In this document: in pieces, positions 451 through 13,111 of the stretch
Layout: every line of letters starts with the position of its first letter
Position numbering within the stretch: position 1 is the stretch's first letter
UHGV virus genome: UHGV-2002320
DNA: 13,111 nucleotides
Reading direction: 5' to 3' (one strand)
From: a virus
The notes under the pieces: generated by a model
Databases searched by the model: none
What the model saw: the letters and a program-made list of their open reading frames with translations, nothing else
Told to the model about the DNA's origin: nothing
Program-made: the position numbers and the translations under genes

Positions 451-2895
451 TTAAATTTCAATAACATTCTCTATTTCTGTGTCAATTTTTAATAACTGAC
501 TAATTTCATTGTGAACTTCTAGATTATTTTCTTTAGTTTCAATAGAGATAATCAAACTAAATCTTGCAATACTAGATTGCCTATTTTCTTTTTTTAGCTC
601 CTTCCACCATCCACTCACAGGATAAATGGCTATGAACTTTTTGTCAGCTAATTCTAATGCTGTTCCGCTCCAAATGTCGCTATGAATAGACCCTCTATTC
701 CTTAGGGTTGGTCCTAATAACCATTTATTAGCATCACTTTCTCCAGCATCAAACTCTTGGTTTTCTTCTTTAAACTTTTTATTTATTCTTGAAACAAATT
801 CTCCGGACTCTTCACCAGGGCTATTAAAATCAAATCTTAAACCGAAAGATCCATATTTATATTTATTATCCCAACCTCTTTCGCCTGGATTAGGCTCTAC
901 AAAATAAGATAACGTTACTCTTAACTTTACGTCCTCTCCACCAATTTTTTCTAATTCAGAGGAAGGCCATGGTAATGAATAAAGAATCATCTTGTTTAAC
1001 TTGCCTTCAACTGTGTAGGGCTGTATTGAATCTTCGACTATTAAATTAACAGATTGATCACCGCTTGAAATTGCTTTTGCTAAATTAGGGAAACCATAAC
1101 CTGACATTCTTAAAAGAAATTCCACATTCTGCTTTGTACGTAAAGGCTCATGTCTTTCGAGGATTTTCTTTGGCCAGGATGCGCTATGGACAACTAAAGC
1201 TCGGATTGTTTCAGGCCAATAATTTGGATACTGACTCCATAGTTTAGAGATGAAAAAAGCAGCCATACCTGTTGCAGCGCTTGTCTCAGAGAAACTACTA
1301 AAATACTCCCCTTTAGTGAATTCATGAGAAAGTGTTAATAAGCTAAGCTCTTCTAAATTAGCAGAAAAGTTGAGATGTGAATCATAACCAAAATTCCCTC
1401 CTTCAAAAACGACATCCGGCTTAAAAGGTGAATTATTTTTCCATATCCTAGATGTTGTAGATGATGGCCCTAAATCAGTTAGTTCAGCAATAACATCATA
1501 ACCATCTGTTATAACGTTATCTTCACTTGCCCAATATCCAACTGTTAGAGCATTATATGAATTAGCGGGATCTTCAATTGAATAAGTTATATTTGCATCC
1601 GGATAATCAGAAATTAGATTAGGAGGAAGATTGCCTGCAGATAATATAAATAATCTTTTCTCTGGATCGTCAGGACTACCTGAAGCAAGTCTGTCGATTG
1701 CTGCGGACCAACTAGTAGGCATCCCTCTTAAAGTATTTGGAGAGGACACTGCCATCGTAAATATCCGACGTTCTGAGGGTTGTTTGGCTTCTATATTGTA
1801 TATAGCATCAGTGGTAATAGCGCCATAAAGTTGAGGTTCATTTACACCAGTATCAGGTAAAATTTTAGCTGACTCAATAACTCCACTTATCGGCAATTCT
1901 TTAGACTGTATCGCGAATTTAAGATCACCAAATAATGCCAATCCAGCAATACCGGTTCCATGACCTTTTAAATCGCTATTCGCCCACTGAGGTTCGGCTA
2001 CAACTAGTGCATTTTCATTTACAAATGTATTAAGCAGTGGGTGCTGAGAGTTAATACCTGTATCAAGTATGCAAATAGGAATTAATGTATTTAGTTTTCT
2101 ATAAGTTATACCATTAACCCACTGAAAAGCTTCAGCTGGTTTCAAATCAAGAAAATCTACACTCACAGCTTTCGAGGGCCGAACTTCCGAAATAATCTCC
2201 GTCATCTGTTGAAGCAGCATTAACTGATGCATAGAAGCACAGACTATTTTTACAACTCTATCTTTAAAACTAAGTGTGCCTTGTTTAACTGTTATACCCA
2301 ACTGACCACATAGTTGTTCAAATTTATTCAGAAGTATTTCTAGTTCTATATCACTTGAGTCCAGCCATAACTCAAGATCATGTATTTTATAAATATCTTC
2401 AGGGAACTCATCCTGACTAAACCATAAAGCCCGAAAATTGCCATATTCTATATTAGATATGGATTCTATAAATGGTTGATTCTTCGGGTTACCTTTTTTT
2501 GTATTCTCAGTAGCATATTCTTGCAGAATCTTTTCAAGTTTAGAAAAACCGTCTACGGGCACAGAAACGTTTGCCATTGTCATACCATCTATAGTATTAA
2601 CAGACATTATTTTCATCCCATTTGCATCTAAACTTTTTAAAACCATTCGTTCTTTAATTTCTGGATTTTCTTGAAAAGTCATTACTACCTTTTGAGGTTC
2701 ATTCCCTTTTCCTAATAACATCTCCACTGTTTTTTTTCTTTCATTATATATATTTATAGCAGATTCTAAACTATGCCTCACTTTTGCAAAATGGGCATTT
2801 CTGTTAACAGGACTTTTACCCTTTTTCGGGCCCCCTGTAACTGGTTTATAGTCAATAAGCTTCTGTGGTAAGTCGATTTTAATGTGAGCCTTCAT
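451..2895 (-). CDS. Subtilisin-like (S8 family) serine protease, 814 aa, with long N- and C-terminal extensions
   Basis: Catalytic motifs in canonical Asp-His-Asn-Ser order: ICILDTGI (Asp278, codon 2062..2064), GHGTGIAG (His312, 1960..1962), ILSAGN (oxyanion Asn422), SETSAATGMAAF (Ser539, codon 1279..1281). About 270 aa precede the Asp motif and about 270 aa follow the Ser motif. Start lies 18 bp after the ATPase stop with an AGGGA ribosome-binding site. Markedly AT-rich compared with the element core. Confidence 0.85.
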   Translation of the reverse strand: MKAHIKIDLPQKLIDYKPVTGGPKKGKSPVNRNAHFAKVRHSLESAINIYNERKKTVEMLLGKGNEPQKVVMTFQENPEIKERMVLKSLDANGMKIMSVNTIDGMTMANVSVPVDGFSKLEKILQEYATENTKKGNPKNQPFIESISNIEYGNFRALWFSQDEFPEDIYKIHDLELWLDSSDIELEILLNKFEQLCGQLGITVKQGTLSFKDRVVKIVCASMHQLMLLQQMTEIISEVRPSKAVSVDFLDLKPAEAFQWVNGITYRKLNTLIPICILDTGINSQHPLLNTFVNENALVVAEPQWANSDLKGHGTGIAGLALFGDLKFAIQSKELPISGVIESAKILPDTGVNEPQLYGAITTDAIYNIEAKQPSERRIFTMAVSSPNTLRGMPTSWSAAIDRLASGSPDDPEKRLFILSAGNLPPNLISDYPDANITYSIEDPANSYNALTVGYWASEDNVITDGYDVIAELTDLGPSSTTSRIWKNNSPFKPDVVFEGGNFGYDSHLNFSANLEELSLLTLSHEFTKGEYFSSFSETSAATGMAAFFISKLWSQYPNYWPETIRALVVHSASWPKKILERHEPLRTKQNVEFLLRMSGYGFPNLAKAISSGDQSVNLIVEDSIQPYTVEGKLNKMILYSLPWPSSELEKIGGEDVKLRVTLSYFVEPNPGERGWDNKYKYGSFGLRFDFNSPGEESGEFVSRINKKFKEENQEFDAGESDANKWLLGPTLRNRGSIHSDIWSGTALELADKKFIAIYPVSGWWKELKKENRQSSIARFSLIISIETKENNLEVHNEISQLLKIDTEIENVIEI

Positions 2896-2913
2896 AATCC
2901 AGTCCCTATGTAA

Positions 2914-3897
2914 TTATTTATATGCTTTTCTCTCTTCTAAAACCTTTTGAAGGTCTATTTGATCTATTTTCTTTAAATTATTGATAATAGCAAATTTTAT
3001 CGCATCATCACAACTTTTTGAAACCTCTGAATAACTTAGCCCCTCAGCGCTACTCAACAAACTCCCCCACTCTTTTACGTTTAATTCAAAAGAATGATAT
3101 TTTGACTTAATTAATTCAATTAAGTTATCTTTTTCAGGCAAAGAATATTCGATCACATCATCAAACCTACGATATAAAGCACTATCCAGGATTTCTTTAT
3201 GATTCGTCGCACTAATAATCAAACTATCAGAATGATGCTCATCTAATAATTGTAAAAAAGTATTTAAAACACGGCGAATCTCACCTACATCATTATGCAT
3301 GCTTCTTTTTGAACCTATTGTATCGAACTCGTCGAACAAATAGACCCCTCTATTCATATTGATATATTCAAAAATACTTCGTAGTTTAGACGATGTTTCT
3401 CCCATAAATTTCGTTATAAGAGAATCCATTCTTACAGTAAAAAGAGGGAAATGTAATTCATGAGCAACAACGCTTGCCGTTAAAGTTTTACCAGTGCCTG
3501 GTGGACCATATAGTAGTAAATGTCTTCTAGGGACAAGACCATACTGTCTAATTTTAGATGCATTTTTATTCTCTTCTAAAAAACGCAATATCTTACTCCT
3601 GACGTCATTTGAAAGAATGACATCTGAAATTTTATTAGTCGGATGAGAAACAGTAAAAAGATCATTAGAGGAATGATTTATTACAGCAGTACTCGACGAA
3701 AGTACTCGAGGGTAATTGTTCCCTTCGTTAGCTTGTAACTTAGCCTTTTCTACAAGCAATCTCAACTCATCGGCGAATTTTCCATGACCTATCTTTGCTT
3801 CATGAGCAGCAATCTGTAGTACTACAGTCAAAAACTTGCGATCATCGCGTGCGATAAAATTTTTTACTAACGCTTTTAGTTGGTTTGCACTAGCCAT
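2914..3897 (-). CDS. AAA+ ATPase of the classic AAA clade, 327 aa
   Basis: Walker A GPPGTGKT (3484..3507), Walker B VYLFDEFD, sensor-1 ISATN, arginine-finger region SALYRRF. About 120 aa N-domain precedes the ATPase core. AGGA ribosome-binding site 8 nt upstream of the ATG. First gene of a two-gene operon with the protease. Confidence 0.9.
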   Translation of the reverse strand: MASANQLKALVKNFIARDDRKFLTVVLQIAAHEAKIGHGKFADELRLLVEKAKLQANEGNNYPRVLSSSTAVINHSSNDLFTVSHPTNKISDVILSNDVRSKILRFLEENKNASKIRQYGLVPRRHLLLYGPPGTGKTLTASVVAHELHFPLFTVRMDSLITKFMGETSSKLRSIFEYINMNRGVYLFDEFDTIGSKRSMHNDVGEIRRVLNTFLQLLDEHHSDSLIISATNHKEILDSALYRRFDDVIEYSLPEKDNLIELIKSKYHSFELNVKEWGSLLSSAEGLSYSEVSKSCDDAIKFAIINNLKKIDQIDLQKVLEERKAYK

Positions 3898-3974: not shown

Positions 3975-4197
3975 TCCAGAAAGCAGCATCGAGCAATTAA
4001 ACAAAATTAGTCAGCGTGCGCAGCCCCGCACGCCTGCCTGCTTCGCTTAACAGACTGGTTTTCATGCATGCCATAAATCGTCTCAGAAGCCACCAAACAA
4101 GGGCTTTCTCGTCAAAAATGGTGCATAAGACTCATGCGTTTTCATGCGCCATAGACATGCACTCATGCGCTCTCAGGCCAGCCAGGGAAAAGGTGTT

Positions 4198-4223
4198 AAA
4201 AATCCCGGTACTCGACCGGGATT
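4198..4223 (-). terminator. Intrinsic terminator downstream of the late (sid/psu/ogr-like) operon
   Basis: 9-bp perfect inverted repeat AATCCCGGT (4201..4209) / ACCGGGATT (4215..4223) with a 5-nt loop. On the minus strand the stem is followed by TTTTTAAC. It sits 20 bp after the Ogr-like stop at 4243. Confidence 0.45.
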
Positions 4224-4242
4224 ACTTGGGCGTTTTTTCTAA

Positions 4243-4524
4243 TCAGACAGGAATCTGCTGACGGCTTGACAGTTTTGACGCGGAGCCATAGCGATTGAGC
4301 GTTTGCTGTTGTTTTACCGGGGTTTGTGATTTGTCTGGTTCCTGTTCATTGCGCCGGGGTTTCATGATTATCTTATCCACACTCTCCAGTGCCGTAAATG
4401 TGCAGGAACATTCCAGATTCTGGCACTGATACCACGAGCGTTTAACTGACGGAGCTTCATAGGCTGCTGTTCTGGCGTGTGCAACTGTACCGCATTCCGG
4501 ACATTTAAGTGCCATTAATATCAC
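4243..4524 (-). CDS. Ogr/Delta-family zinc-finger late transcription activator, 93 aa
   Basis: CPECGTVAHARTAAY...YQCQNLECSCTF matches the Cys-x2-Cys...Cys-x4-Cys signature and surrounding residues of P2 Ogr / P4 Delta (AHART, QCQN, ESV..I.KP). Overlaps the preceding gene by 4 bp (ATGA). Confidence 0.8.
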   Translation of the reverse strand: MILMALKCPECGTVAHARTAAYEAPSVKRSWYQCQNLECSCTFTALESVDKIIMKPRRNEQEPDKSQTPVKQQQTLNRYGSASKLSSRQQIPV

Positions 4525-5072
4525 TCCTGTATATCGTTAATGTCATTCAGGCGTTGCTGAAAACGCAGATGTTGTGCCGGGGTGTAAGAACCCTGGCAAT
4601 CACGAATCATCCCGGGGTCAGGCATCAAACCGGATTCATCCAGGATCTCACGATAATCCCCGGCAATTTCAGGCGGTGTTATTGCCAGCTGGCGAACCAG
4701 AGCACTGCGTAATATACGGGACGCAACGTCAACCCCTCCGCGCCCCTTCAGGAACGGAGCCAGTGCAGATGTCAGGGCTGCCCCATTCGCCTGCATAAAA
4801 TTGCTGAGAGCGGCTTCTGTGCAGGCCTCCATCAGTAAATGCTGCGCGTAAATGCATTCGCGCGCAGCACAGTTAATTTGCCATTTCAGCACATCCAGAC
4901 GTTCCCGCAGTAATTCGAGCTGTCGGGCATAATCTGCTGGTTTTTCTGTGGCAGCGAGGAGAGATGTTATCTGTTGTTCAACGGCTTTTCGGCTCTCACT
5001 ATGTCCGGCCCACAGAATACGGGCATTCCGAAAACTGGTAAGTGCCTGGTCAGGCGTGCCTCGGGCCGTCAT
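4521..5072 (-). CDS. psu: Psu-like protein (polarity suppression / capsid decoration family), 183 aa
   Basis: Size and operon position match P4 Psu. Recognisable similarity to remembered P4 Psu segments (L..LR....V.KWQ.N.AA; G.AL..ALAP.L; TPAQ). Start overlaps the upstream gene stop by 4 bp. Confidence 0.6.
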   Translation of the reverse strand: MTARGTPDQALTSFRNARILWAGHSESRKAVEQQITSLLAATEKPADYARQLELLRERLDVLKWQINCAARECIYAQHLLMEACTEAALSNFMQANGAALTSALAPFLKGRGGVDVASRILRSALVRQLAITPPEIAGDYREILDESGLMPDPGMIRDCQGSYTPAQHLRFQQRLNDINDIQE

Positions 5073-5812
5073 ACTGCTTTCTCCTTCTCAGCGAGTTCCT
5101 GACGAACCTTAATTTTATGCATAGCTGCCGGAGAGAGTTGATTACTGAAATCCAGACGCGCCGCATAATCCGGGGCAACTCCCGCCAGTTTAAACACCGG
5201 GTCCTGCTCAGGCATCGCATCGTTAGCCAGAGCCGGTCTGGTGATATGTTTATGAATAAAGTCTTTCAGCACTGTGTCCGGGTCATTAACTGAATTCACC
5301 ACACCCACAACGGCACTGGCTTCCCGGCCCATTGTGGATTTAAGCAGGCTCAGCGTCTGAATAAGCGCTTTTCCATGCGACTGCATAAAATCTTCCCAGA
5401 TTTGTTTTGCGCGAATATCCACAAGAATATTATGCGCGTGGATATACTTTCCGGCTAATTCTGCAGCTTTCTGCGGCAAAAGTGCATTTTCGCTTTCCTG
5501 AGCCGCCAGCAGCTCATCAAAATCCTCAAGCGTTTCTCGTCCCAGCGCAATTTCCGTGCGCAGTTTTTTCATTTCCTTTGAGACCACGCCCTGACTTTCA
5601 CGAAACAGCGTGCGCCACTCCTCATTCAGTGTGTTCGTCGTGGCTTCCATTTCAGCGCGACGCTGGCGGATTGTCGCAATATTATCCGCTGCCGCTTTCT
5701 GCTGACGACGTGCTTCAAGCCATGCGTTTCTGGCTGTGTTCATGGTTTCCAGTGCCCGCTGCGTTACAGCCGGAAAAGTGGAAAGGTTGTTATTCACTGC
5801 GGTGTTGTTCAT
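5069..5812 (-). CDS. Sid-like (capsid size determination / external scaffold) or Psu-family paralog, 247 aa
   Basis: Size is close to P4 Sid (244 aa) and it is the first gene of the late operon, preceded by TGT-N12-ACA dyads. Strong ribosome-binding site (AGGAG, 5-nt spacing). The assignment rests on position and size, not on motifs. Confidence 0.45.
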   Translation of the reverse strand: MNNTAVNNNLSTFPAVTQRALETMNTARNAWLEARRQQKAAADNIATIRQRRAEMEATTNTLNEEWRTLFRESQGVVSKEMKKLRTEIALGRETLEDFDELLAAQESENALLPQKAAELAGKYIHAHNILVDIRAKQIWEDFMQSHGKALIQTLSLLKSTMGREASAVVGVVNSVNDPDTVLKDFIHKHITRPALANDAMPEQDPVFKLAGVAPDYAARLDFSNQLSPAAMHKIKVRQELAEKEKAV

Positions 5813-5846
5813 GACTTCTCCTGTCGGGTTGGTTCGTTACGTCAAT

Positions 5847-5902
5847 TGTGTCGTGGCTGACACAAGCACACTATCGGTGATCAGTGTGTGGTGGCTGGCA
5901 CA
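5847..5902 (-). promoter_or_regulatory. P2/P4-type late promoter region with two TGT-N12-ACA dyads (Ogr/Delta binding-site consensus)
   Basis: TGTGTCgtggctGACACA at 5847..5864 (perfect 6-bp inverted arms) and TGTgtggtggctggcACA at 5885..5902. Both fit TGT-N12-ACA and resemble each other. The second is centred about 80 bp upstream of the sid-like ATG. Confidence 0.5.
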
Positions 5903-5989
5903 ACGGGCGCTTGCGGTTATTCAGACGTGGCTATGAAAGCCAGCCAGATAAAAATGCCCTCTGTTTCAGTCTGCTTTATGTCCCTGATG

Positions 5990-6180
5990 CGGTGGAACAG
6001 GTGAAACATGTGTTACAGCTTTGTTTTATAAGACATTTATATACACTGCACCGGTGGAACATCGCGGGTAACAAGGTGGAACAGCGGATTGGCTGGCGTT
6101 ACATCTGTTCCACCTCACTATTTCAGAAGGTGGAACAGGTTCAGCCCTGTAAAATACGGTTGTTCCACCTGTTTCACCTG
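5990..6180. repeat. Iteron cluster: at least 6 copies of GGTGGAACA / TGTTCCACC plus 2 variant copies, in both orientations; candidate replication origin / crr-like primase-binding region
   Basis: GGTGGAACA at 5991, 6053, 6075, 6129; reverse complement TGTTCCACC at 6106 and 6161; variants GGTGAAACA at 6000 and TGTTTCACC at 6170. The motif is one base longer than the P4 type I iteron TGTTCACC as I recall it. Located directly downstream of the primase gene, as crr is in P4. Confidence 0.65.
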
Positions 6181-6212
6181 TTACCCTTAATAAATAAGAC
6201 TCACGCAAAGCC

Positions 6213-8885
6213 TTAACCCGGCACCTCGCTGTTGAAGACATAGAGCCTGCGGGGATTCATCTCTGGCGGGCGAATGGTTGTCTGGAGTTTGCCATCAGTG
6301 GAGGGCAGCAGGTATCCACGATCTGCGCACAGACGCGCCACCTTGCGCGGGTCAAATCCCCTGCAGATTTCTTTCCAGCCGGACGGCATGACATAGAACG
6401 TAGTGACAGCTTCCGTGCCCTGCGCGGTACTGCCTTTCTCCACCCTGCGCCAGCCCACCATATTGCCGGGGCGGTTGCGCTCGTCATACCAGTCTGCAAA
6501 GCGGCTGTACTGATTCGCGGTGAAGAAACTGCGAACCTGCTCCAGTGCGGCGATATCTTCCTGATTGGCGGTGTGCCCGCGATCTTTCAGCCATGCGTTC
6601 AGGCAGACGCGGGTTGCCCGCAGTGCTTCACCCTCAGGCCAGCCGGTGATACCCAGACGGGTTGCCAGTTCACCTGCCATCGCCACCAGAGCAAAGCGGT
6701 TCACAGCCCGGCCCACCTGATTGCCTGCATCTTTCGGAGTCAGGGCGGCAGCATATTCCTTCATCAGCGATTTTGCCTGTGCCGTTAGTCCGTTAAGATC
6801 AGCGGTCAGTGCTTTCAGCCACTCCCGGAACGGCGAACCGTAGTAGCAGGACGTGGCCCATTCAAGATGCTCTGCCAGAGCCTTGCCGCTGTCGAAGCCG
6901 TGCAGCTCCTCAAAAACGCCAAACTTCCCGGAATCGCTGGGGATCTGGATCATCCTGACTTCCATCCCGGCAAAAGTACGCTCACCGGCCTTTGCCGCAT
7001 GTTCGGTCAGAGACAACTCGCCAGTTGAAAAGAACAACAGGCGCCACTGCTTACGGGTACGCAGCTCACCGTCCGTACCGGCACGGCCCTTGCCCTGACC
7101 GTTTGCCAGCATGTAGGCGATATTGCCTGCCTCGCGTCCGTCAACTTCCCGGATCTCATCAAGCATCATGGCGGCATCGTTGCGGCGGCTGGCGCATCCC
7201 TCCAGCGCGTTGCCGGTGGCCCGCCATGTCTGCCAGTAGTCAGGCCCGCCGCAGACGGAGGTTGCCGCTTTCATGGTGGTGGTCTTACCGTCTGTCGATT
7301 CCCCTTTGAGGTGGTAGCCGCCGCCGTCCATACCAACCAGCCGTAACAGTGGTGCAGCAAAGGCCAGGCTGACAGCAAATGCCACGCGGGAGTTGCCGGT
7401 ACAGTAGCGGGATACATGCTCCCGCCATTCCTCTGATGTGCCCGACACGCGGAAATCACGCCCCTGCACGGAAGTGGTCTGGAGAATGACACCCTCTGCA
7501 CCTTCACCGCTGACCTCATCCTGCAGGACGTAAACCTGACCATGCCAGCCAGTACGACTGACGCAGGTCACGCGGCGTTCCGGTTTACACAGTGAGATAT
7601 ATTCCATCAGGCGTGCGCGTGCCTCACCGGTGGTGCTGATATAAGACAGCCCGTTAACCAGCAGTACCCGGCGCAGTTCCTCACCACTGCCGCTCAGCAT
7701 TTCCATCGGCATCGCCCAGCGGCGACACTCACCCCACGTATCTTCCCATTCCAGCAGTCGTCCGAAGTTACCGCCATCGGCATCGCAGGTGATTGCCGTC
7801 ACGCGCAGCGGGCTGCATATTTTGACGTTCTGGATCTCCGTCTCACCGTTGCGCTGTACCTGCTTTTCATACCAGAGATATTCCTGGGTAAGACGGAACC
7901 CGTGCGGCAGTTGCGTGCGGCCTTCCCCGCACAGTACCAGACCGTTGCGAAAGGCTTCACGGGCACGGGTAATACCGTGCTCCCGATGAAAGTCATTCCA
8001 GTCAGCCTTAATCTCTCCTGGTGGCAGCGTCATCCAGCCGCCAACAGCTTTTGCCGCCCGTTCAGCAAAGGCTCTGCCGGGATTCTCACCTCCGTCCTGA
8101 AAATCGTTATCACCGGCGATGATAATTTTTACCTCAGGCCAGCGTGCCCGCAGCGACTGCGCTACATTGGGCAGGTTGCCCGCAGATATGGCAGCCACTA
8201 CGCATCCGGCAGTGAGCTGACTTACCGTCAGCGCCGTAGCGTAACCTTCGGTAATCACCACCTGTACCGGTGGTTCAGACGGTAACGGGCTGAGCGACAC
8301 AAACGCGCCTTTCATCGTGCTGCCGGGCAGTATGCTTTTTTCACCCGTCGGGGCGATAAGCTGTGCACCAGTCACGGCTCCGGTGTTGGTCGTGAGTGGT
8401 AACAGCAGGGAACCGGCAGGAAAATCCTTACCGCTGATATGCTGCACGCTTCCGGTCAGAGAGGCCGGGTATCCGGCGAACCCTTTTCCTGTCAGATAGG
8501 CGCTTTCTCCCGTGTGGCTCTCTTTCATCAGCGCCGCCACGGTAAGACCCATGTCGCGTTTAGGGGCTTTTTGTCTGGCAGGCTTAACAGGCAGTTCCTG
8601 CACATCCGGCACATTAAGCACCTGCGCCACCTCCTGCGCAGCCTTTCTGACGCTGTAACCGGTTACGAGCTTAACCAGATCCAGACCGTCACCATTGCCA
8701 CACTGGCTGCAGATCCACGTCCCGCGCCCGTCAAGGTCATCAAGGCGAAAACGATCCTTGCCCCCACATTTCGGGCAGGGACCGTGCCTGCCGTTTTCAG
8801 GTACATCAATACGCAGCATCTGGAGAATAACGGGCCATTTCCCCCGTGCGGCGGCTGAAATCTGCGTAACCGTTTGTATTGTCAT
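6213..8885 (-). CDS. P4 alpha-like primase/helicase, 890 aa (zinc ribbon + TOPRIM + P-loop NTPase)
   Basis: N-terminal zinc ribbon CPKCGG..RFR...CSQCG, TOPRIM-like core (VVITEGYATALT ... IIIAGDNDF), downstream P-loop GESTDGKTTT. Translationally coupled to the upstream gene (ATGA overlap at 8882..8885). GC-rich. Confidence 0.9.
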   Translation of the reverse strand: MTIQTVTQISAAARGKWPVILQMLRIDVPENGRHGPCPKCGGKDRFRLDDLDGRGTWICSQCGNGDGLDLVKLVTGYSVRKAAQEVAQVLNVPDVQELPVKPARQKAPKRDMGLTVAALMKESHTGESAYLTGKGFAGYPASLTGSVQHISGKDFPAGSLLLPLTTNTGAVTGAQLIAPTGEKSILPGSTMKGAFVSLSPLPSEPPVQVVITEGYATALTVSQLTAGCVVAAISAGNLPNVAQSLRARWPEVKIIIAGDNDFQDGGENPGRAFAERAAKAVGGWMTLPPGEIKADWNDFHREHGITRAREAFRNGLVLCGEGRTQLPHGFRLTQEYLWYEKQVQRNGETEIQNVKICSPLRVTAITCDADGGNFGRLLEWEDTWGECRRWAMPMEMLSGSGEELRRVLLVNGLSYISTTGEARARLMEYISLCKPERRVTCVSRTGWHGQVYVLQDEVSGEGAEGVILQTTSVQGRDFRVSGTSEEWREHVSRYCTGNSRVAFAVSLAFAAPLLRLVGMDGGGYHLKGESTDGKTTTMKAATSVCGGPDYWQTWRATGNALEGCASRRNDAAMMLDEIREVDGREAGNIAYMLANGQGKGRAGTDGELRTRKQWRLLFFSTGELSLTEHAAKAGERTFAGMEVRMIQIPSDSGKFGVFEELHGFDSGKALAEHLEWATSCYYGSPFREWLKALTADLNGLTAQAKSLMKEYAAALTPKDAGNQVGRAVNRFALVAMAGELATRLGITGWPEGEALRATRVCLNAWLKDRGHTANQEDIAALEQVRSFFTANQYSRFADWYDERNRPGNMVGWRRVEKGSTAQGTEAVTTFYVMPSGWKEICRGFDPRKVARLCADRGYLLPSTDGKLQTTIRPPEMNPRRLYVFNSEVPG

Positions 8886-9265: not shown

Positions 9266-9546
9266 CTGGCACCTCCTTCAATCAGTGCGCAGCTGTGTGC
9301 AATATCCGTCAAATCTGCCAGCAGGTACTCCATCAGCGCGGCGACACCATGCGCACAGCCAGTGTCCAGTGCTCCGGCCTGAGACGGGTATTCAGAAAAG
9401 AGAAGCTGGAGCATGTCGCAGGCATTTCTTGCGCGGGTCAGCTTTCCGAAACTGTCCTCTGACAACCCATAGGCAAAAACACCGGTATTGTGTTTTTCAG
9501 GCAAAGTGTGGCCCTGAGCACCGTTGTGCCCGTTTGAAATATTCAT
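9262..9546 (-). CDS. Hypothetical protein, 94 aa
   Basis: ORF with a GGAG ribosome-binding site upstream and a 4-bp overlap with the next gene. No motif recognised. It occupies the position where P4 carries small genes such as epsilon, but no homology is claimed. Confidence 0.55.
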   Translation of the reverse strand: MNISNGHNGAQGHTLPEKHNTGVFAYGLSEDSFGKLTRARNACDMLQLLFSEYPSQAGALDTGCAHGVAALMEYLLADLTDIAHSCALIEGGAR

Positions 9547-9577
9547 CGTGGATTACTCCGTTTTCAGCGGTATTGTG

Positions 9578-9937: not shown

Positions 9938-10106
9938 GTTCACCTCCGCAGGGAATGCGCCCGGCAAAGCTCAGTACATAGTCCGGGGCAAGTCTGCGCC
10001 GCGCTGACCGCTCGTTATCTGCGGTGATCCTTAACATCACAGGACGGGCATTGCGTTGACTGCGGTTGATCGCCGCAAATAACCAGGTACACTTCTGTTT
10101 AGCCAT
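9930..10106 (-). CDS. Small hypothetical protein, 58 aa, below the ORF-track length cutoff; first gene of the replication operon
   Basis: ATG at 10104..10106 preceded by AAGAGG with an 8-nt spacer; translation MAKQKCTWLFAAINRSQRNARPVMLRITADNERSARRRLAPDYVLSFAGRIPCGGEHA; TAA at 9930..9932 overlaps the next start. Found by manual translation only. Confidence 0.3.
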   Translation of the reverse strand: MAKQKCTWLFAAINRSQRNARPVMLRITADNERSARRRLAPDYVLSFAGRIPCGGEHA

Positions 10107-10198
10107 CTTCGTTACCTCTTATAACGGTTGGTTAAATGCCCGATTTGTGTTCCCGCACAATCGGGCATTGCTTTTACAAGCGAACTATACTTACAATG

Positions 10199-10238
10199 GT
10201 AATTACCATGTAGTCATCATATTCTAGGGTAATTACCA
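10199..10238. promoter_or_regulatory. Two copies of the self-complementary 10-mer GGTAATTACC spaced 30 bp apart; candidate operators in a divergent promoter region
   Basis: GGTAATTACC at 10199..10208 and 10229..10238, each embedded in the longer direct repeat GGTAATTACCATGT. The second copy overlaps the start codon of the ribbon-helix-helix-like gene. Confidence 0.4.
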
Positions 10239-10411
10239 TGTCAACACCACAAGAGAAACGTTCTCCACCATTCCAAATGCGTCTTACCGACGATTTTAGG
10301 TTGCAACTCGAAAACGAAATGCGCAAAGATGGAGATAGCGCGTTGGCAACTTGGATTAAAAGAATTTTACGCAAAGAACTCCAATCACGCGGGATTGACC
10401 CTAAAGGCTAA
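10238..10411 (+). CDS. Arc/MetJ-type ribbon-helix-helix DNA-binding protein, 57 aa, below the ORF-track cutoff; candidate repressor
   Basis: Manual translation MSTPQEKRSPPFQMRLTDDFRLQLENEMRKDGDSALATWIKRILRKELQSRGIDPKG. The segment FQMRL..DFRLQLENEMRKDGDSALATWIKRIL aligns by eye with the Arc repressor strand-helix-helix (FNLRWPREVLDLVRKVAEENGRSVNSEIYQRV). The only + strand gene in the element. Confidence 0.5.
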   Translation: MSTPQEKRSPPFQMRLTDDFRLQLENEMRKDGDSALATWIKRILRKELQSRGIDPKG

Positions 10412-10443
10412 TCAGTTAAATATTACTAACTATCAATTAAGGC

Positions 10444-10734
10444 TTAGGGAGTAGATGATAATCTATTCCCTTTATTAATTGCTCTTGCCTTATTTCTCAT
10501 CCCCTCAAACTGTTGACCTGAGTTTTCTTCAAACCCATCTCGCCACTTATAATAATCAGCAGCGCGCCATCGTGACATCCGACCTATTTTTATAGGTTTT
10601 GGAAAGCGATTCAGAGAAATCAATCGATAAATCCATTTATCACTTAATAAACAATCGGAAGTAATAAACTTCATATCGATCAGAGAATCCATTGAAGGTC
10701 GTTGCAAAGTAGTATTATCATGTTTAGATAACAT
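10444..10734 (-). CDS. alpA: AlpA-family phage transcriptional regulator (helix-turn-helix), up to 96 aa; true start may be an internal Met
   Basis: The segment SDKWIYRLISLNRFPKPIKIGRMSRWRAADYYKW matches the AlpA signature (..IYRLI..G.FPKP.K.G.R...W...). AT-rich. Confidence 0.7.
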   Translation of the reverse strand: MLSKHDNTTLQRPSMDSLIDMKFITSDCLLSDKWIYRLISLNRFPKPIKIGRMSRWRAADYYKWRDGFEENSGQQFEGMRNKARAINKGNRLSSTP

Positions 10735-10859
10735 TCATCATTCTCCGTTTATCTAAGTCTATTGGCTTCAACACGGAAAATTAAAACATAGGTTATAAAT
10801 GAGAAAAATGTGACTAATGAAAAAAATTCAAAATCATTAGCCACAACAATTGTTAATAT

Positions 10860-11684
10860 TTAGTTAAACTTAATGTTTTTCATGCAACTACGTAGCAAAC
10901 TAACAACAGTATCATAGCTCAAAGGCGGTTCTCCGGTCTTAGGCCAGAACTCACTGGCATGTTGAAAAAGATAATCAGCTATCGCTGCTGGACTCTCTCT
11001 TCTTAGCCTCATATCACGATGATAGAGCGAAATAATAGCCATGAGTATTTCAGCTCGAGGAACAGCATGTTTTTGTTTTTGCGCCTCAGATTGTGATTTA
11101 TATTTATTGGCGTTTTTTATCCGCTTTTGTTCGCATAAGACTATATCAATGAATTTTTGAATCTGTACCTTTGTAATCCACAAAACCTCAAAAAGATAAT
11201 AATTTTCTTTTTCATCATAATTTACATAAAGAATTACCTTACAATTTATATTAGGCGTACCCGCCAGTAGAAAATGAATAGGCCAGGAATCCGGTTGCCC
11301 CTCATGCTTAACTAACAGATCTTTATATTCATAATCAACAGCCCATAAACCGGATATGAAGCATCGAATAAAACCATTTTTATCAATTAAATTATCTTCA
11401 TCAGGGATTCTTATAGAACTTAAGTCTGACAACATAATATTGCCATTTCTATCTCGTGGTAAATATTTCAGATTAGATAAGAACTCATCCATTTGACCAT
11501 CAATCTTCAAACCACATGAAACATCATACTCATCATCATGGAATTCCATGCATAGCTCTACATCTCGTTCTCTGGCAAACCAGAGTATATCCTTTTCACT
11601 ACAACCAATTTTTTCTGAAGCTTCATCCAACTGGTAGTAATCTCTGAGCAGAGAATCAGTATTATTAATTTTTAAAATATTCAT
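10860..11684 (-). CDS. Hypothetical protein, 274 aa, AT-rich orphan cargo gene directly downstream of the integrase
   Basis: Long ORF whose ATG overlaps the integrase stop (ATGA at 11681..11684). Composition is strongly AT-biased compared with the element core. No catalytic or binding motif recognised. Confidence 0.7.
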   Translation of the reverse strand: MNILKINNTDSLLRDYYQLDEASEKIGCSEKDILWFARERDVELCMEFHDDEYDVSCGLKIDGQMDEFLSNLKYLPRDRNGNIMLSDLSSIRIPDEDNLIDKNGFIRCFISGLWAVDYEYKDLLVKHEGQPDSWPIHFLLAGTPNINCKVILYVNYDEKENYYLFEVLWITKVQIQKFIDIVLCEQKRIKNANKYKSQSEAQKQKHAVPRAEILMAIISLYHRDMRLRRESPAAIADYLFQHASEFWPKTGEPPLSYDTVVSLLRSCMKNIKFN

Positions 11685-12868
11685 TTATGAGTACCAATTT
11701 GCTCAGATAAATAATTAGCATACCATTGCATCATTTCTCTTCTCCCTTCGAGATATTGGGCATGGTTATAAATTCCACGAATAGAGTTTTTGTCCGAATG
11801 AGCAAGCTGGGTTTCAATCCAAGCGCTGTTAAATCCTTTCTCATGTAGGATTGTACTCATCGTATGCCTGAAACCATGCCCCGTAACACGCCCTGCATAT
11901 CCAATACGTTTAAACACCTGATTAATGCTTGCTTCACTCATAAATTTGCTGGGATCGTTGCGTCCAGGGAACATCAGCGGGTAGTTCCCAGTTAGTTCTT
12001 TCAAACTTTTGAGATGGGATAATGCTTGTTTTGACAACGGGACAATATGGCTCCTACGCATTTTCATACGTTCTTTTGGGATCTCCCACACCGCATTATC
12101 AAAATCCACCTCTCGCCACTCACCTGCTCGTAGTTCTCCAGTTCGTAGACCTGTCAGGATAAGTAAATGCGCCCCCAACAATACAATTGGACTTCCTGAA
12201 TAAGAATTAAGGGCATTAAAGAACTCCGGTAGTTCGTTGGCTTTGAGGAATGGATAGTGGACTGCTTCATGTCCTTGCATCGCACTGGCAAGATCCGGTG
12301 CCGGATTGTAGATTGCCCTACCCGTTACGATGGCATAGCGAAAAACTTCACCGCATCGCTGACGGACTTTCTTCGCTTTCTCCATAGCGCCTCGAGCTTC
12401 TATCAACCTCAGAACTTCAAGCAGTTCAAGGGGCTGAATATCAGCTATAGGTCTGTGCCCAATATGCGGGAAAATGTCTTTCTCGAATGCCTCAATGATG
12501 TCGGAAGCATAGCCCTCAGACCATTTGGGTGATTTCATTTTGTGCCACTCTAACGCCACTTCTCTGAATGGGTTAAGTGTCTCACTCGCTGCATTTAAAG
12601 CCTGCTTTTTGGCTTTTTTGACTTCGCCGGGATCTTCACCTGCTGCGAGTAGTTTCTTCGCGTCTTCTCGTTTTTGTCTGGCATCAGCAAGTGTGACTGT
12701 TGGATAAACACCAAAGGACAATCGTTTCTCTTTACCAGCAAAACGGTATTTCATACGCCAGTAACGCGAGCCATTAGGTTCGACCTGAAGGTATAGGCCA
12801 CCTCCATCAAACAGCTTGTAGCTCTTCTCTTTTCCTTTCGCAGCTTCAACCTTGCGGGCATTCAGCAT
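11681..12868 (-). CDS. int: P4-type tyrosine integrase (about 395 aa from the likely ATG; the ORF track extends to a TTG at 12940)
   Basis: N-terminal region (M)LNARKVEAAKGKEKSYKLFDGGGLYLQVEPNGSRYWRMKYRFAGKEKRLSFGVYP is the hallmark of P4-family integrases. C-terminal catalytic region contains HGFRHT and the LAHSD...YNH segment. Lies next to the tRNA 3' end in the same orientation. Confidence 0.9.
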   Translation of the reverse strand: MLNARKVEAAKGKEKSYKLFDGGGLYLQVEPNGSRYWRMKYRFAGKEKRLSFGVYPTVTLADARQKREDAKKLLAAGEDPGEVKKAKKQALNAASETLNPFREVALEWHKMKSPKWSEGYASDIIEAFEKDIFPHIGHRPIADIQPLELLEVLRLIEARGAMEKAKKVRQRCGEVFRYAIVTGRAIYNPAPDLASAMQGHEAVHYPFLKANELPEFFNALNSYSGSPIVLLGAHLLILTGLRTGELRAGEWREVDFDNAVWEIPKERMKMRRSHIVPLSKQALSHLKSLKELTGNYPLMFPGRNDPSKFMSEASINQVFKRIGYAGRVTGHGFRHTMSTILHEKGFNSAWIETQLAHSDKNSIRGIYNHAQYLEGRREMMQWYANYLSEQIGTHK

Positions 12869-13035
12869 CATTGGGGGCACATTTCCTAGACCGAACAGAA
12901 CATGCCCCTGATTGTGCCCCCAACCGCGTGTTGATTTCAAGAGACAAGGGTTGACCTCAAACGTATGAAAACAACGTAATATATATGTTTTTAAATGATT
13001 TTGTTGATGTGGGTTGACTTGGGAAAACTAGGTGA

Positions 13036-13111
13036 TGGTGCCGATAATAGGAGTCGAACCTACGACCTTCGCATTACGAATGCGCTGCTCTACCAACTGA
13101 GCTATATCGGC
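13036..13111 (-). tRNA. thrW: tRNA-Thr, anticodon CGT, 76 nt with encoded CCA
   Basis: The reverse complement of 13036..13111 folds by eye into a cloverleaf: acceptor GCCGATA, D-arm GCTC/GAGC, anticodon loop TTCGTAA, T-arm GGTTCGA, 3' CCA. From memory it matches the enterobacterial thrW tRNA, a known integration site. Its last 18 nt are duplicated at 211..228. Confidence 0.9.

What the first reader, a model, noticed from the sequence alone, without database searches (positions are those of the whole stretch)
5847..5902. Two TGT-N12-ACA dyads upstream of the late operon, which itself encodes an Ogr/Delta-like activator
TGT-N12-ACA is the recognised binding-site consensus for P2 Ogr / P4 Delta at late promoters. 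Two copies 38 bp apart precede the Sid-like gene, and the Ogr-like zinc-finger gene is the last gene of the same operon, which suggests positive autoregulation plus responsiveness to a helper phage activator. The first dyad is centred only about 45 bp from the ATG, so either the second dyad is the functional site or the true start codon lies further downstream.
Basis: partly seen in the sequence, partly recalled or inferred. Interest (0 to 1): 0.45.

Follow-up and report, generated by a model that had tools for sequence, protein, structure and literature searches.

The report
P4-type sid late promoter, two sites
The two TGT-N12-ACA dyads are real and are the counterpart, in an E. coli P4-like satellite prophage, of the well-studied two-site Ogr/Delta-activated sid promoter of phage P4, so the finding is correct but ordinary.

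Summary
Both dyads are present exactly as described: 5847-5864 and 5885-5902, 38 bp apart. They lie upstream of a minus-strand sid-psu-delta operon in a P4-like satellite integrated at tRNA-Thr. Phage P4's own sid promoter has the same geometry to the base. It has two TGT-N12-ACA dyads 38 bp apart, and the proximal dyad centre lies 43.5 bp before the sid ATG. This holds although Sid is only 24% identical and BLAST finds no DNA similarity between the promoters.

In 18 further loci (Sid 100% down to 41% identical, several enterobacterial genera) both dyads recur. Spacing is 38 bp in 19 of 20 sequences. The TGT/ACA arms are invariant while the interiors vary. An invariant CACAAT(T) follows as a likely -10 element. 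Every locus carries a single-domain Ogr/Delta gene downstream on the same strand.

Placing the transcription start at about 5838 puts the dyads at -55.5 and -17.5. The first value matches the positions annotated for P2 late promoters. As I recall the literature, the pair corresponds to P4 sites I and II.

The worry about the ATG is resolved: the distal dyad holds the canonical -55 position. Nothing was tested experimentally. Verdict: new member of a known kind, low interest.

The parts
5885..5902 (-). Distal dyad (site I-like). It reads TGTGCCAGCCACCACACA on the gene strand. Its centre is 81.5 bp before the sid ATG, at a predicted -55.5.
   Evidence: Same offset as P4 9493-9510. The TGT/ACA arms are symmetric in 17 of 17 distinct site pairs, while the interior is variable.
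5847..5864 (-). Proximal dyad (site II-like). It reads TGTGTCAGCCACGACACA on the gene strand. Its centre is 43.5 bp before the ATG, at a predicted -17.5. Its 3' arm overlaps the -10 hexamer.
   Evidence: Same offset as P4 9531-9548. Symmetry extends to 6 bp arms in 14-15 of 17 distinct site pairs.
5845..5850 (-). Likely -10 hexamer CACAAT (4 of 6 matches to TATAAT). No acceptable -35 hexamer is present; TAGTGT at 5868-5873 matches 2 of 6.
   Evidence: CACAATT is invariant in all 19 distinct upstream sequences, P4 included. The sigma-70 consensus scan finds no promoter here.
5838..5838 (-). Predicted transcription start (an A, 7 nt after the -10 hexamer). Inferred, not mapped. The 5' UTR would be about 25 nt and contains GGAG at 5818-5821.
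   Evidence: Inference. The P2 record annotates activator sites centred about 55-58 bp from mapped starts.
5069..5812 (-). sid-like capsid size-determination gene (247 aa).
   Evidence: BLASTP against P4 Sid: 24% identity over 226 aa, E=1e-12. Weak Psu-family Pfam match.
4521..5072 (-). psu-like gene (183 aa).
   Evidence: PF07455, E=3.6e-44. 29% identity to P4 Psu.
4243..4524 (-). Single-domain Ogr/Delta zinc-finger activator gene. It is 93 aa from the GTG start, or 90 aa from the ATG at 4515 as RefSeq annotates it. It carries the CX2CX22CX4C motif.
   Evidence: PF04606, E=7e-16. 47% identity to P2 Ogr and 45% to the first half of P4 Delta. RefSeq annotation.
4196..4224 (-). Intrinsic terminator hairpin (AAUCCCGG...CCGGGAUU followed by a U run), starting about 20 nt after the delta stop. 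It marks the end of the operon.
   Evidence: Sequence; minimum-free-energy fold.

Best explanation
The region 5838-5902 (minus strand) is the late promoter of a P4-like satellite, equivalent to P4 Psid. It has a weak core promoter: a conserved CACAAT -10 element and no usable -35 element. It therefore depends on a small zinc-finger activator of the Ogr/Delta family. The activator is expected to bind the TGT-N12-ACA dyad centred near -55 (5885-5902) and to recruit RNA polymerase. A second dyad of the same type, centred near -18 (5847-5864), overlaps the spacer and the -10 element and is a second activator-binding site, as I recall for P4. The transcript covers sid, psu and the element's own delta gene and stops at a hairpin terminator after delta. 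A helper phage's Ogr could therefore switch the operon on, and delta could then sustain it by positive feedback and act on helper late promoters. Shown here: the sites, their geometry, their conservation, and the operon content. Inferred: the transcription start, binding by Delta or Ogr, and the direction of the effect at each site.
For: (1) The geometry is identical to P4 Psid. P4 has dyads at 9493-9510 and 9531-9548, 38 bp apart, with the proximal centre 43.5 bp before the sid ATG. A gapless colinear alignment shares TGTG.CAG, CACA and CACAATT. Yet Sid is 24% identical, Psu 29% and the Delta finger 45%, and blastn finds no match. (2) Phylogenetic footprint. In 18 loci from Shigella, Enterobacter, Citrobacter, Pseudocitrobacter, Pantoea, Mixta, Erwinia and Scandinavium, each has two dyads at the same offsets (one has an extra match further upstream). 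Spacing is 38 bp in 19 of 20 sequences and 39 bp in one. The proximal centre lies 41.5-45.5 bp from the ATG. The arms are invariant, the interiors vary, and CACAATT is invariant. (3) The constraint falls on TGT/ACA at a fixed spacing, not on hairpin stability. The distal interior positions are symmetric in only 1-8 of 17 distinct site pairs. (4) Every locus has a single-domain Ogr/Delta gene downstream of sid on the same strand. The window protein has the CX2CX22CX4C motif and is 47% identical to P2 Ogr. (5) With the start at 5838 the dyads fall at -55.5 and -17.5. The P2 record annotates activator sites centred 55-58 bp from mapped late transcription starts. (6) No sigma-70 consensus promoter is found here, as expected for an activator-dependent promoter. 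(7) Published statements: TGT-N12-ACA is the P2 late-promoter consensus and these promoters are Ogr-dependent (PMC3931495). Delta and Ogr both promote expression of P2 and P4 late genes (PMC8628076). Ogr trans-activates P4, leading to expression of delta, psu and sid (PMC7552001). psu-delta-sid lie under one promoter (PMC13586616, citing Reiter et al. 1998).
Against: There is no experimental evidence for this element: the transcription start, the binding and the activation are all inferred. The -55/-18 two-site description of P4 Psid (Julien & Calendar 1995; Reiter et al. 1998) rests on my memory, because neither paper was held. The alpha gene ends 310 bp upstream on the same strand, and the consensus scan lists no minus-strand terminator between them. 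Read-through could therefore contribute to sid expression independently of the dyads. The proximal site overlaps the -10 element, so part of its conservation may reflect the core promoter rather than activator binding. A site at -18 could equally repress.
Confidence: 0.85

Rival explanations
1. Only the distal dyad activates. The proximal dyad is not a positive site but an operator, where Delta at high concentration or another protein occludes the -10 element and spacer. This would give negative feedback or keep the promoter silent in the prophage. Alternatively, its conservation mainly reflects core-promoter constraints.
For: The proximal centre, predicted at -17.5, overlaps the conserved CACAAT. 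It is more strongly conserved and more extensively palindromic than the distal site: 6-bp arms in 14-15 of 17 distinct site pairs, against only 3-bp arms distally. The four P2 late promoters and P4's PLL, with a single dyad, lack a second perfect dyad. A second site is therefore not needed for activation as such.
Against: The arms and the spacing are the same TGT-N12-ACA as the activator site, so the same protein family is the simplest ligand. The 38-bp spacing to the distal site is fixed in 19 of 20 sequences, which argues that the two sites work together. Nothing here tells the sign of the effect.
Confidence: 0.25
2. The dyads belong to the replication origin or to termination of the upstream alpha transcript. 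They would be hairpins or alpha-protein sites next to the GGTGGAACA iterons, not a promoter.
For: The iterons (5991-6178) lie about 90 bp away. The alpha gene ends at 6213 on the same strand. Each dyad could form a short hairpin.
Against: The same dyad pair sits at the same distance from sid in loci where the upstream neighbour is a divergent vis gene rather than alpha. No U run follows either dyad. Only the 3-bp arms are symmetric in the distal site. The iteron sequence differs from the dyads, and in P4 the iterons (GGTGAACAG) bear no relation to the dyads. RNA folding of the region upstream of the dyads (5903-6010) is not significant, z = -1.4.
Confidence: 0.03
3. The two dyads are chance occurrences of a low-information pattern.
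For: TGT-N12-ACA specifies only 6 bases. The window has 7 matches against 3.1 expected, and 4 of 200 shuffles reach 7.
Against: Both sites are conserved at fixed offsets in 20 of 20 sid loci down to 24% protein identity.
Confidence: 0.01

Closest known systems
Psid, the late (sid) promoter of satellite phage P4 (NC_001609, 9493-9557)
   Same: Two TGT-N12-ACA dyads 38 bp apart. The proximal centre is 43.5 bp and the distal centre 81.5 bp before the sid ATG. CACAAT overlaps the proximal 3' arm. Replication iterons lie just upstream. The operon encodes Sid, Psu and an Ogr-family activator and is followed by cos.
   Different: No DNA similarity is detectable by BLAST. Gene order is sid-psu-delta instead of sid-delta-psu. 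The activator has a single Ogr-like domain (90-93 aa) instead of P4's tandem 166-aa Delta. The proximal site is a much better palindrome than P4's. The upstream neighbour is a co-directional alpha gene instead of the divergent vis/PLL region.
P2 late promoters PP, PO, PV and PF (Ogr-dependent)
   Same: A partial-dyad activator site centred 55-58 bp upstream of the mapped start (annotation). No consensus -35 element. The activator is a CX2CX22CX4C zinc-finger protein 47% identical to the window's protein.
   Different: The P2 sites are imperfect (TGT-N12-CCA, or TGT-N11-ACA) and single. There is no second perfect dyad near -18.
P4 PLL (late leftward promoter upstream of vis)
   Same: A TGT-N12-ACA dyad of the same kind. 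It is conserved at exactly 111.5 bp from the vis start in P4, L011 and L015.
   Different: It is a single dyad. No equivalent exists in this window, which has no other perfect dyad lying wholly in non-coding DNA.

Membership tests
Ogr/Delta-dependent late promoters of P2/P4 | A TGT-N12-ACA element of dyad symmetry upstream of a late operon | tested here: met
   Perfect matches at 5885-5902 and 5847-5864, conserved in 20 of 20 sid loci.
Ogr/Delta-dependent late promoters of P2/P4 | Activator site centred at about -55 from the transcription start | tested here: inconclusive
   The centre falls at -55.5 only relative to a start predicted at 5838 from the conserved CACAAT. The start is not mapped. 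The offsets to the ATG are identical to P4's.
Ogr/Delta-dependent late promoters of P2/P4 | Weak core promoter: a -10-like element without a consensus -35 | tested here: met
   The consensus scan finds no sigma-70 promoter in the region. CACAAT is invariant. The best -35 candidate, TAGTGT, matches 2 of 6.
Ogr/Delta-dependent late promoters of P2/P4 | Transcription requires Ogr or Delta, acting through the RNA polymerase alpha subunit | not testable with these tools
   This needs reporter or in vitro transcription assays.
P4 Psid two-site architecture | A second activator site centred near -18, about 38 bp downstream of the first | tested here: met
   The spacing is 38 bp in both the window and P4. 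The predicted centre is -17.5. That the P4 site is bound by Delta comes from memory of Julien & Calendar 1995 and Reiter et al. 1998, which were not held.
Ogr/Delta zinc-finger activators (PF04606) | Pfam match above the gathering score, plus the CX2CX22CX4C motif | tested here: met
   58.3 bits against a cut-off of 26.3. C8, C11, C34 and C39 in the 93-aa translation. 47% identity to P2 Ogr.
P4-like satellites | Core gene set: integrase, AlpA, alpha primase, Sid, Psu, Delta (and Ash/epsilon) | tested here: met
   The int gene lies next to tRNA-Thr. AlpA is a weak match (20.6 bits against a cut-off of 21). Also present: Toprim/DUF927 alpha, DUF5375, Sid, Psu and Ogr_Delta. Ash/epsilon was not identified. 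A cos-like site is at 4016-4034.

The most novel reading that the evidence does not exclude
The proximal dyad, not the distal one, may be the more constrained part of sid promoters. It is an extended 6-bp-arm palindrome fused to the -10 element, fixed 38 bp (about 3.6 helical turns) from the -55 site in all satellites sampled, and absent from the helper's late promoters and from PLL. It could be a satellite-specific control device, for example Delta-specific autoregulation or a way to discriminate the satellite's own activator from the helper's. The whole promoter-sid-delta-cos unit could also be a portable cassette that recombines between two different satellite backbones (co-directional alpha versus divergent vis).
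Probability: 0.25. Interest if true: 0.35.

Novelty: new member of a known kind. Interest (0 to 1): 0.18.

Why it matters
It pins down where and how helper sensing probably enters this common E. coli satellite; the region is present in 333 of 5426 complete genomes. It supplies a predicted transcription start and two defined sites for mutagenesis. It also shows that P4's two-site Psid layout is a family-wide, base-precise feature rather than a peculiarity of P4. That is useful for annotating P4-like elements and for engineering P4-based delivery systems. It does not change the understanding of the system.

Tried and rejected
- blastn of 5700-6250 against phage records found no match. P4 against the window aligns only within int. 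Homology of the promoter therefore rests on motif geometry, not on sequence alignment.
- The primary papers on Delta binding and Psid were not held (PMC177091, PMC107552) and neither was the P2 review (PMC4836473). Text searches for 'sid promoter' or 'Psid' gave nothing usable beyond a citation.
- The sigma-70 consensus scan found no promoter at the dyads. This fits an activator-dependent promoter.
- I searched for a PLL-like second late promoter. No other perfect dyad lies wholly in non-coding DNA, and the one-mismatch hits upstream of alpA are unconvincing.
- I tested whether the conserved CTGGCTGGC box upstream is a terminator or a structured RNA. The folds were not better than shuffles, with z between -0.2 and -1.4.
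- An Rfam scan of the whole window found only tRNA-Thr.
- The 'terminator-like' hit at 4013-4034 was reinterpreted as the cos site.
- The idea that the true sid start lies downstream was rejected. The ATG at 5812 is the first start after an in-frame stop, a GGAG precedes it, and the N-terminus aligns from residue 1 in most homologues.

Full report
**Observation.**
TGTGTCGTGGCTGACACA is at 5847-5864 and TGTGTGGTGGCTGGCACA is at 5885-5902, with starts 38 bp apart. The pattern carries little information: the window has 7 matches against 3.1 expected, and 4 of 200 shuffles reach 7. These two are, however, the only perfect matches lying wholly in non-coding DNA. One further perfect match, at 12929-12946, straddles the int start codon. 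Both dyads sit in the 400-bp gap upstream of a minus-strand gene.

**Context.**
The window is a P4-like satellite prophage of E. coli. The 5700-6250 region is 100% identical in strain MS1665 and is found in 333 of 5426 complete E. coli genomes. The element lies between tRNA-Thr/proA and the pao genes. All of its genes are on the minus strand, in this order:
- int (11681-12940) and a 274-aa ORF with no family match.
- An AlpA-like regulator, followed by small ORFs that include an Icd-like one.
- A DUF5375 protein (cnr-like) and an 890-aa Toprim/DUF927 alpha primase (6213-8885).
- GGTGGAACA iterons (5991-6178), then the dyads.
- sid-like (5069-5812), psu (4521-5072) and an Ogr/Delta gene (4243-4524).
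- A hairpin terminator, a cos-like site, and an IetA/IetS defence pair (2914-3897 and 451-2895).

These assignments rest.

The Ogr/Delta protein has the CX2CX22CX4C motif. It is 47% identical to P2 Ogr and 45% identical to the first half of P4 Delta. The gene order, sid-psu-delta, differs from P4's sid-delta-psu.

**Comparison with P4.**
I fetched P4. Its sid upstream region has exactly two TGT-N12-ACA dyads, at 9493-9510 and 9531-9548, also 38 bp apart. The proximal centre lies 43.5 bp and the distal centre 81.5 bp before the sid ATG. The window gives the same numbers to the base. A gapless alignment shares TGTG.CAG, CACA and CACAATT. This holds although Sid is 24% identical, Psu 29% and the Delta finger 45%. 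BLAST sees no nucleotide similarity outside int.

**Phylogenetic footprint.**
An alignment of Sid homologues retrieved 18 genomic loci from Shigella, Enterobacter, Citrobacter, Pseudocitrobacter, Pantoea, Mixta, Erwinia and Scandinavium. Their Sid identity ranges from 100% down to 41%.
- Every locus has the two dyads at these offsets upstream of sid; one locus has an extra match further upstream. Spacing is 38 bp in 19 of 20 sequences and 39 bp in one. The proximal centre lies 41.5-45.5 bp from the ATG.
- Among 17 distinct site pairs the TGT/ACA arms are symmetric in 17 of 17 at both sites.
- The distal interior is variable and asymmetric.
- The proximal site is an extended palindrome (TGTGCC-N6-GGCACA, or TGTGTC-N6-GACACA in the window), followed by an invariant CACAATT.
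- The constraint is therefore on short arms at a fixed spacing. That is the signature of a protein site, not of a hairpin.
- All 18 loci carry a single-domain Ogr/Delta gene downstream of sid on the same strand.

**Promoter geometry.**
CACAAT (5850-5845, minus strand) is the only plausible -10 element, and no consensus sigma-70 promoter is found. A start 7 nt downstream, at the A of 5838, puts the dyad centres at -55.5 and -17.5. The same reasoning places the P4 start at 9557 and gives identical values.

The P2 GenBank record annotates activator-binding sites and mapped starts for PP, PO, PV and PF. Their centres lie 55-58 bp upstream. From memory (Julien & Calendar 1995; Reiter et al. 1998, neither held), P4 Delta footprints at about -55 on all six late promoters and at a second site near -18 on Psid. 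The window reproduces that layout.

The ATG at 5812 is sound: an in-frame stop lies 27 nt upstream, GGAG is at 5818-5821, and the N-terminus is conserved. The distal dyad is the canonical activating site. The proximal one is the counterpart of P4 site II.

**Mechanism.**
Published work holds that Ogr-dependent P2 late promoters carry TGT-N12-ACA (PMC3931495). Delta and Ogr both drive expression of P2 and P4 late genes (PMC8628076). Helper Ogr trans-activates P4, leading to expression of delta, psu and sid (PMC7552001). I therefore infer that helper Ogr or the element's own Delta binds 5885-5902 and recruits RNA polymerase to a weak core promoter. The transcript would run through sid, psu and delta to the hairpin at 4196-4224, which gives positive feedback.

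The role of the proximal site is unsettled: it could be a co-activator site or an operator. It is more conserved than the distal site, and it is absent from the P2 late promoters and from PLL.

One caveat concerns the alpha gene, which ends 310 bp upstream on the same strand. The consensus scan lists no minus-strand terminator between alpha and the dyads, so read-through may contribute to sid expression.

**Rivals.**
An origin or terminator role is unlikely. The same dyad pair sits at the same distance from sid in loci whose upstream neighbour is a divergent vis gene rather than alpha. No U run follows either dyad. Chance is excluded by the conservation.

**Verdict.**
This is a new member of a well-known kind, the P4 Psid late promoter. 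The modest added value is threefold:
- The two-site, 38-bp layout is conserved to within a few bases across diverse satellites.
- The proximal site is the more constrained of the two.
- The promoter-sid-delta-cos unit occurs on two different backbones.

Interest is low.

Noticed in passing
window 451-3897 (minus strand): An AAA ATPase (327 aa) and an S8 subtilase (814 aa) match the IetA and IetS models of the IetAS anti-phage defence system (E=1.5e-79 and 4.3e-45). They lie just beyond cos, which is where P4-like satellites are reported to carry defence hotspots.
   Followed up: partly
window 4016-4034 (minus strand): The cos-like sequence GGCGTGCGGGGCTGCGCAC was flagged as 'terminator-like'. 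All 18 related loci carry GGCG(T/G)G(G)CGGGG with the left flank GAAGCGGGC, as at P2 cosR. It is probably the packaging site, located after the sid operon as in P4.
   Followed up: partly
window 4120-4168: A non-coding block between delta and cos (GCATGAGTGCATGTCTATGGCGCATGAAAACGCATGAGTCTTATGCACC on the minus strand) contains repeated GCATGA. Its first 30-50 nt are about 86-95% identical even in loci whose Sid is only 41% identical. It has no Rfam match and no match to the P2 or P4 cos junctions. It may be a terminase recognition element or a small RNA.
   Followed up: partly
window 5991-6178: Six GGTGGAACA/TGTTCCACC iterons and two GGTGAAACA variants lie between the alpha stop and the dyads. 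They resemble the P4 type 1 ori/crr repeats (GGTGAACAG), which also lie just upstream of P4 Psid. This is likely the origin.
   Followed up: partly
window 5903-6212, and loci L002-L019: The same promoter-sid cassette occurs on two backbones. In the window, L002-L008, L010 and L013, alpha is co-directional and immediately upstream. In L009, L011, L012 and L014-L019 there is a P4-type divergent vis and alpha operon. The scan lists no minus-strand intrinsic terminator between alpha and the dyads in the window.
   Followed up: partly
window 5939-5948 and 4176-4185; L009 about 2385-2410: A CTGGCTGGC(C) box recurs upstream of the distal dyad and again just after the delta terminator. In P4-type loci it forms a near-perfect 12-bp-arm palindrome, CCTTTTCCTGGC-TG-GCCAGAAGAAGG, about 29 bp centre to centre from the distal dyad. 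P4 has CCTGGCTTGCCGG. The RNA folds are not significant. It is possibly a site for another regulator and remains unexplained.
   Followed up: partly
window 9968-10859; L001, L011, L015: The window has no PLL-type dyad upstream of its alpA-led operon. P4, L011 and L015 each have a perfect TGT-N12-ACA centred exactly 111.5 bp from the vis start. In this backbone the replication operon may therefore not respond to Ogr or Delta.
   Followed up: partly
loci L003-L008, L010, L011, L016-L018: psu is missing between sid and delta in many relatives. Several loci (L004, L006, L012, L013, L017, L018) carry an extra sid/psu-like paralogue after delta. The content of the operon is therefore variable while the promoter stays fixed.
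   Followed up: no
window 10860-11684 (minus strand): A 274-aa ORF lies between int and the AlpA-like gene. It has no Pfam or PADLOC match and is annotated as hypothetical in RefSeq. It may be cargo at a second variable position.
   Followed up: no
window 13036-13111: tRNA-Thr (CGT) lies next to the integrase gene. The element is inserted between proA/tRNA-Thr and the pao genes in E. coli MS1665.
   Followed up: partly
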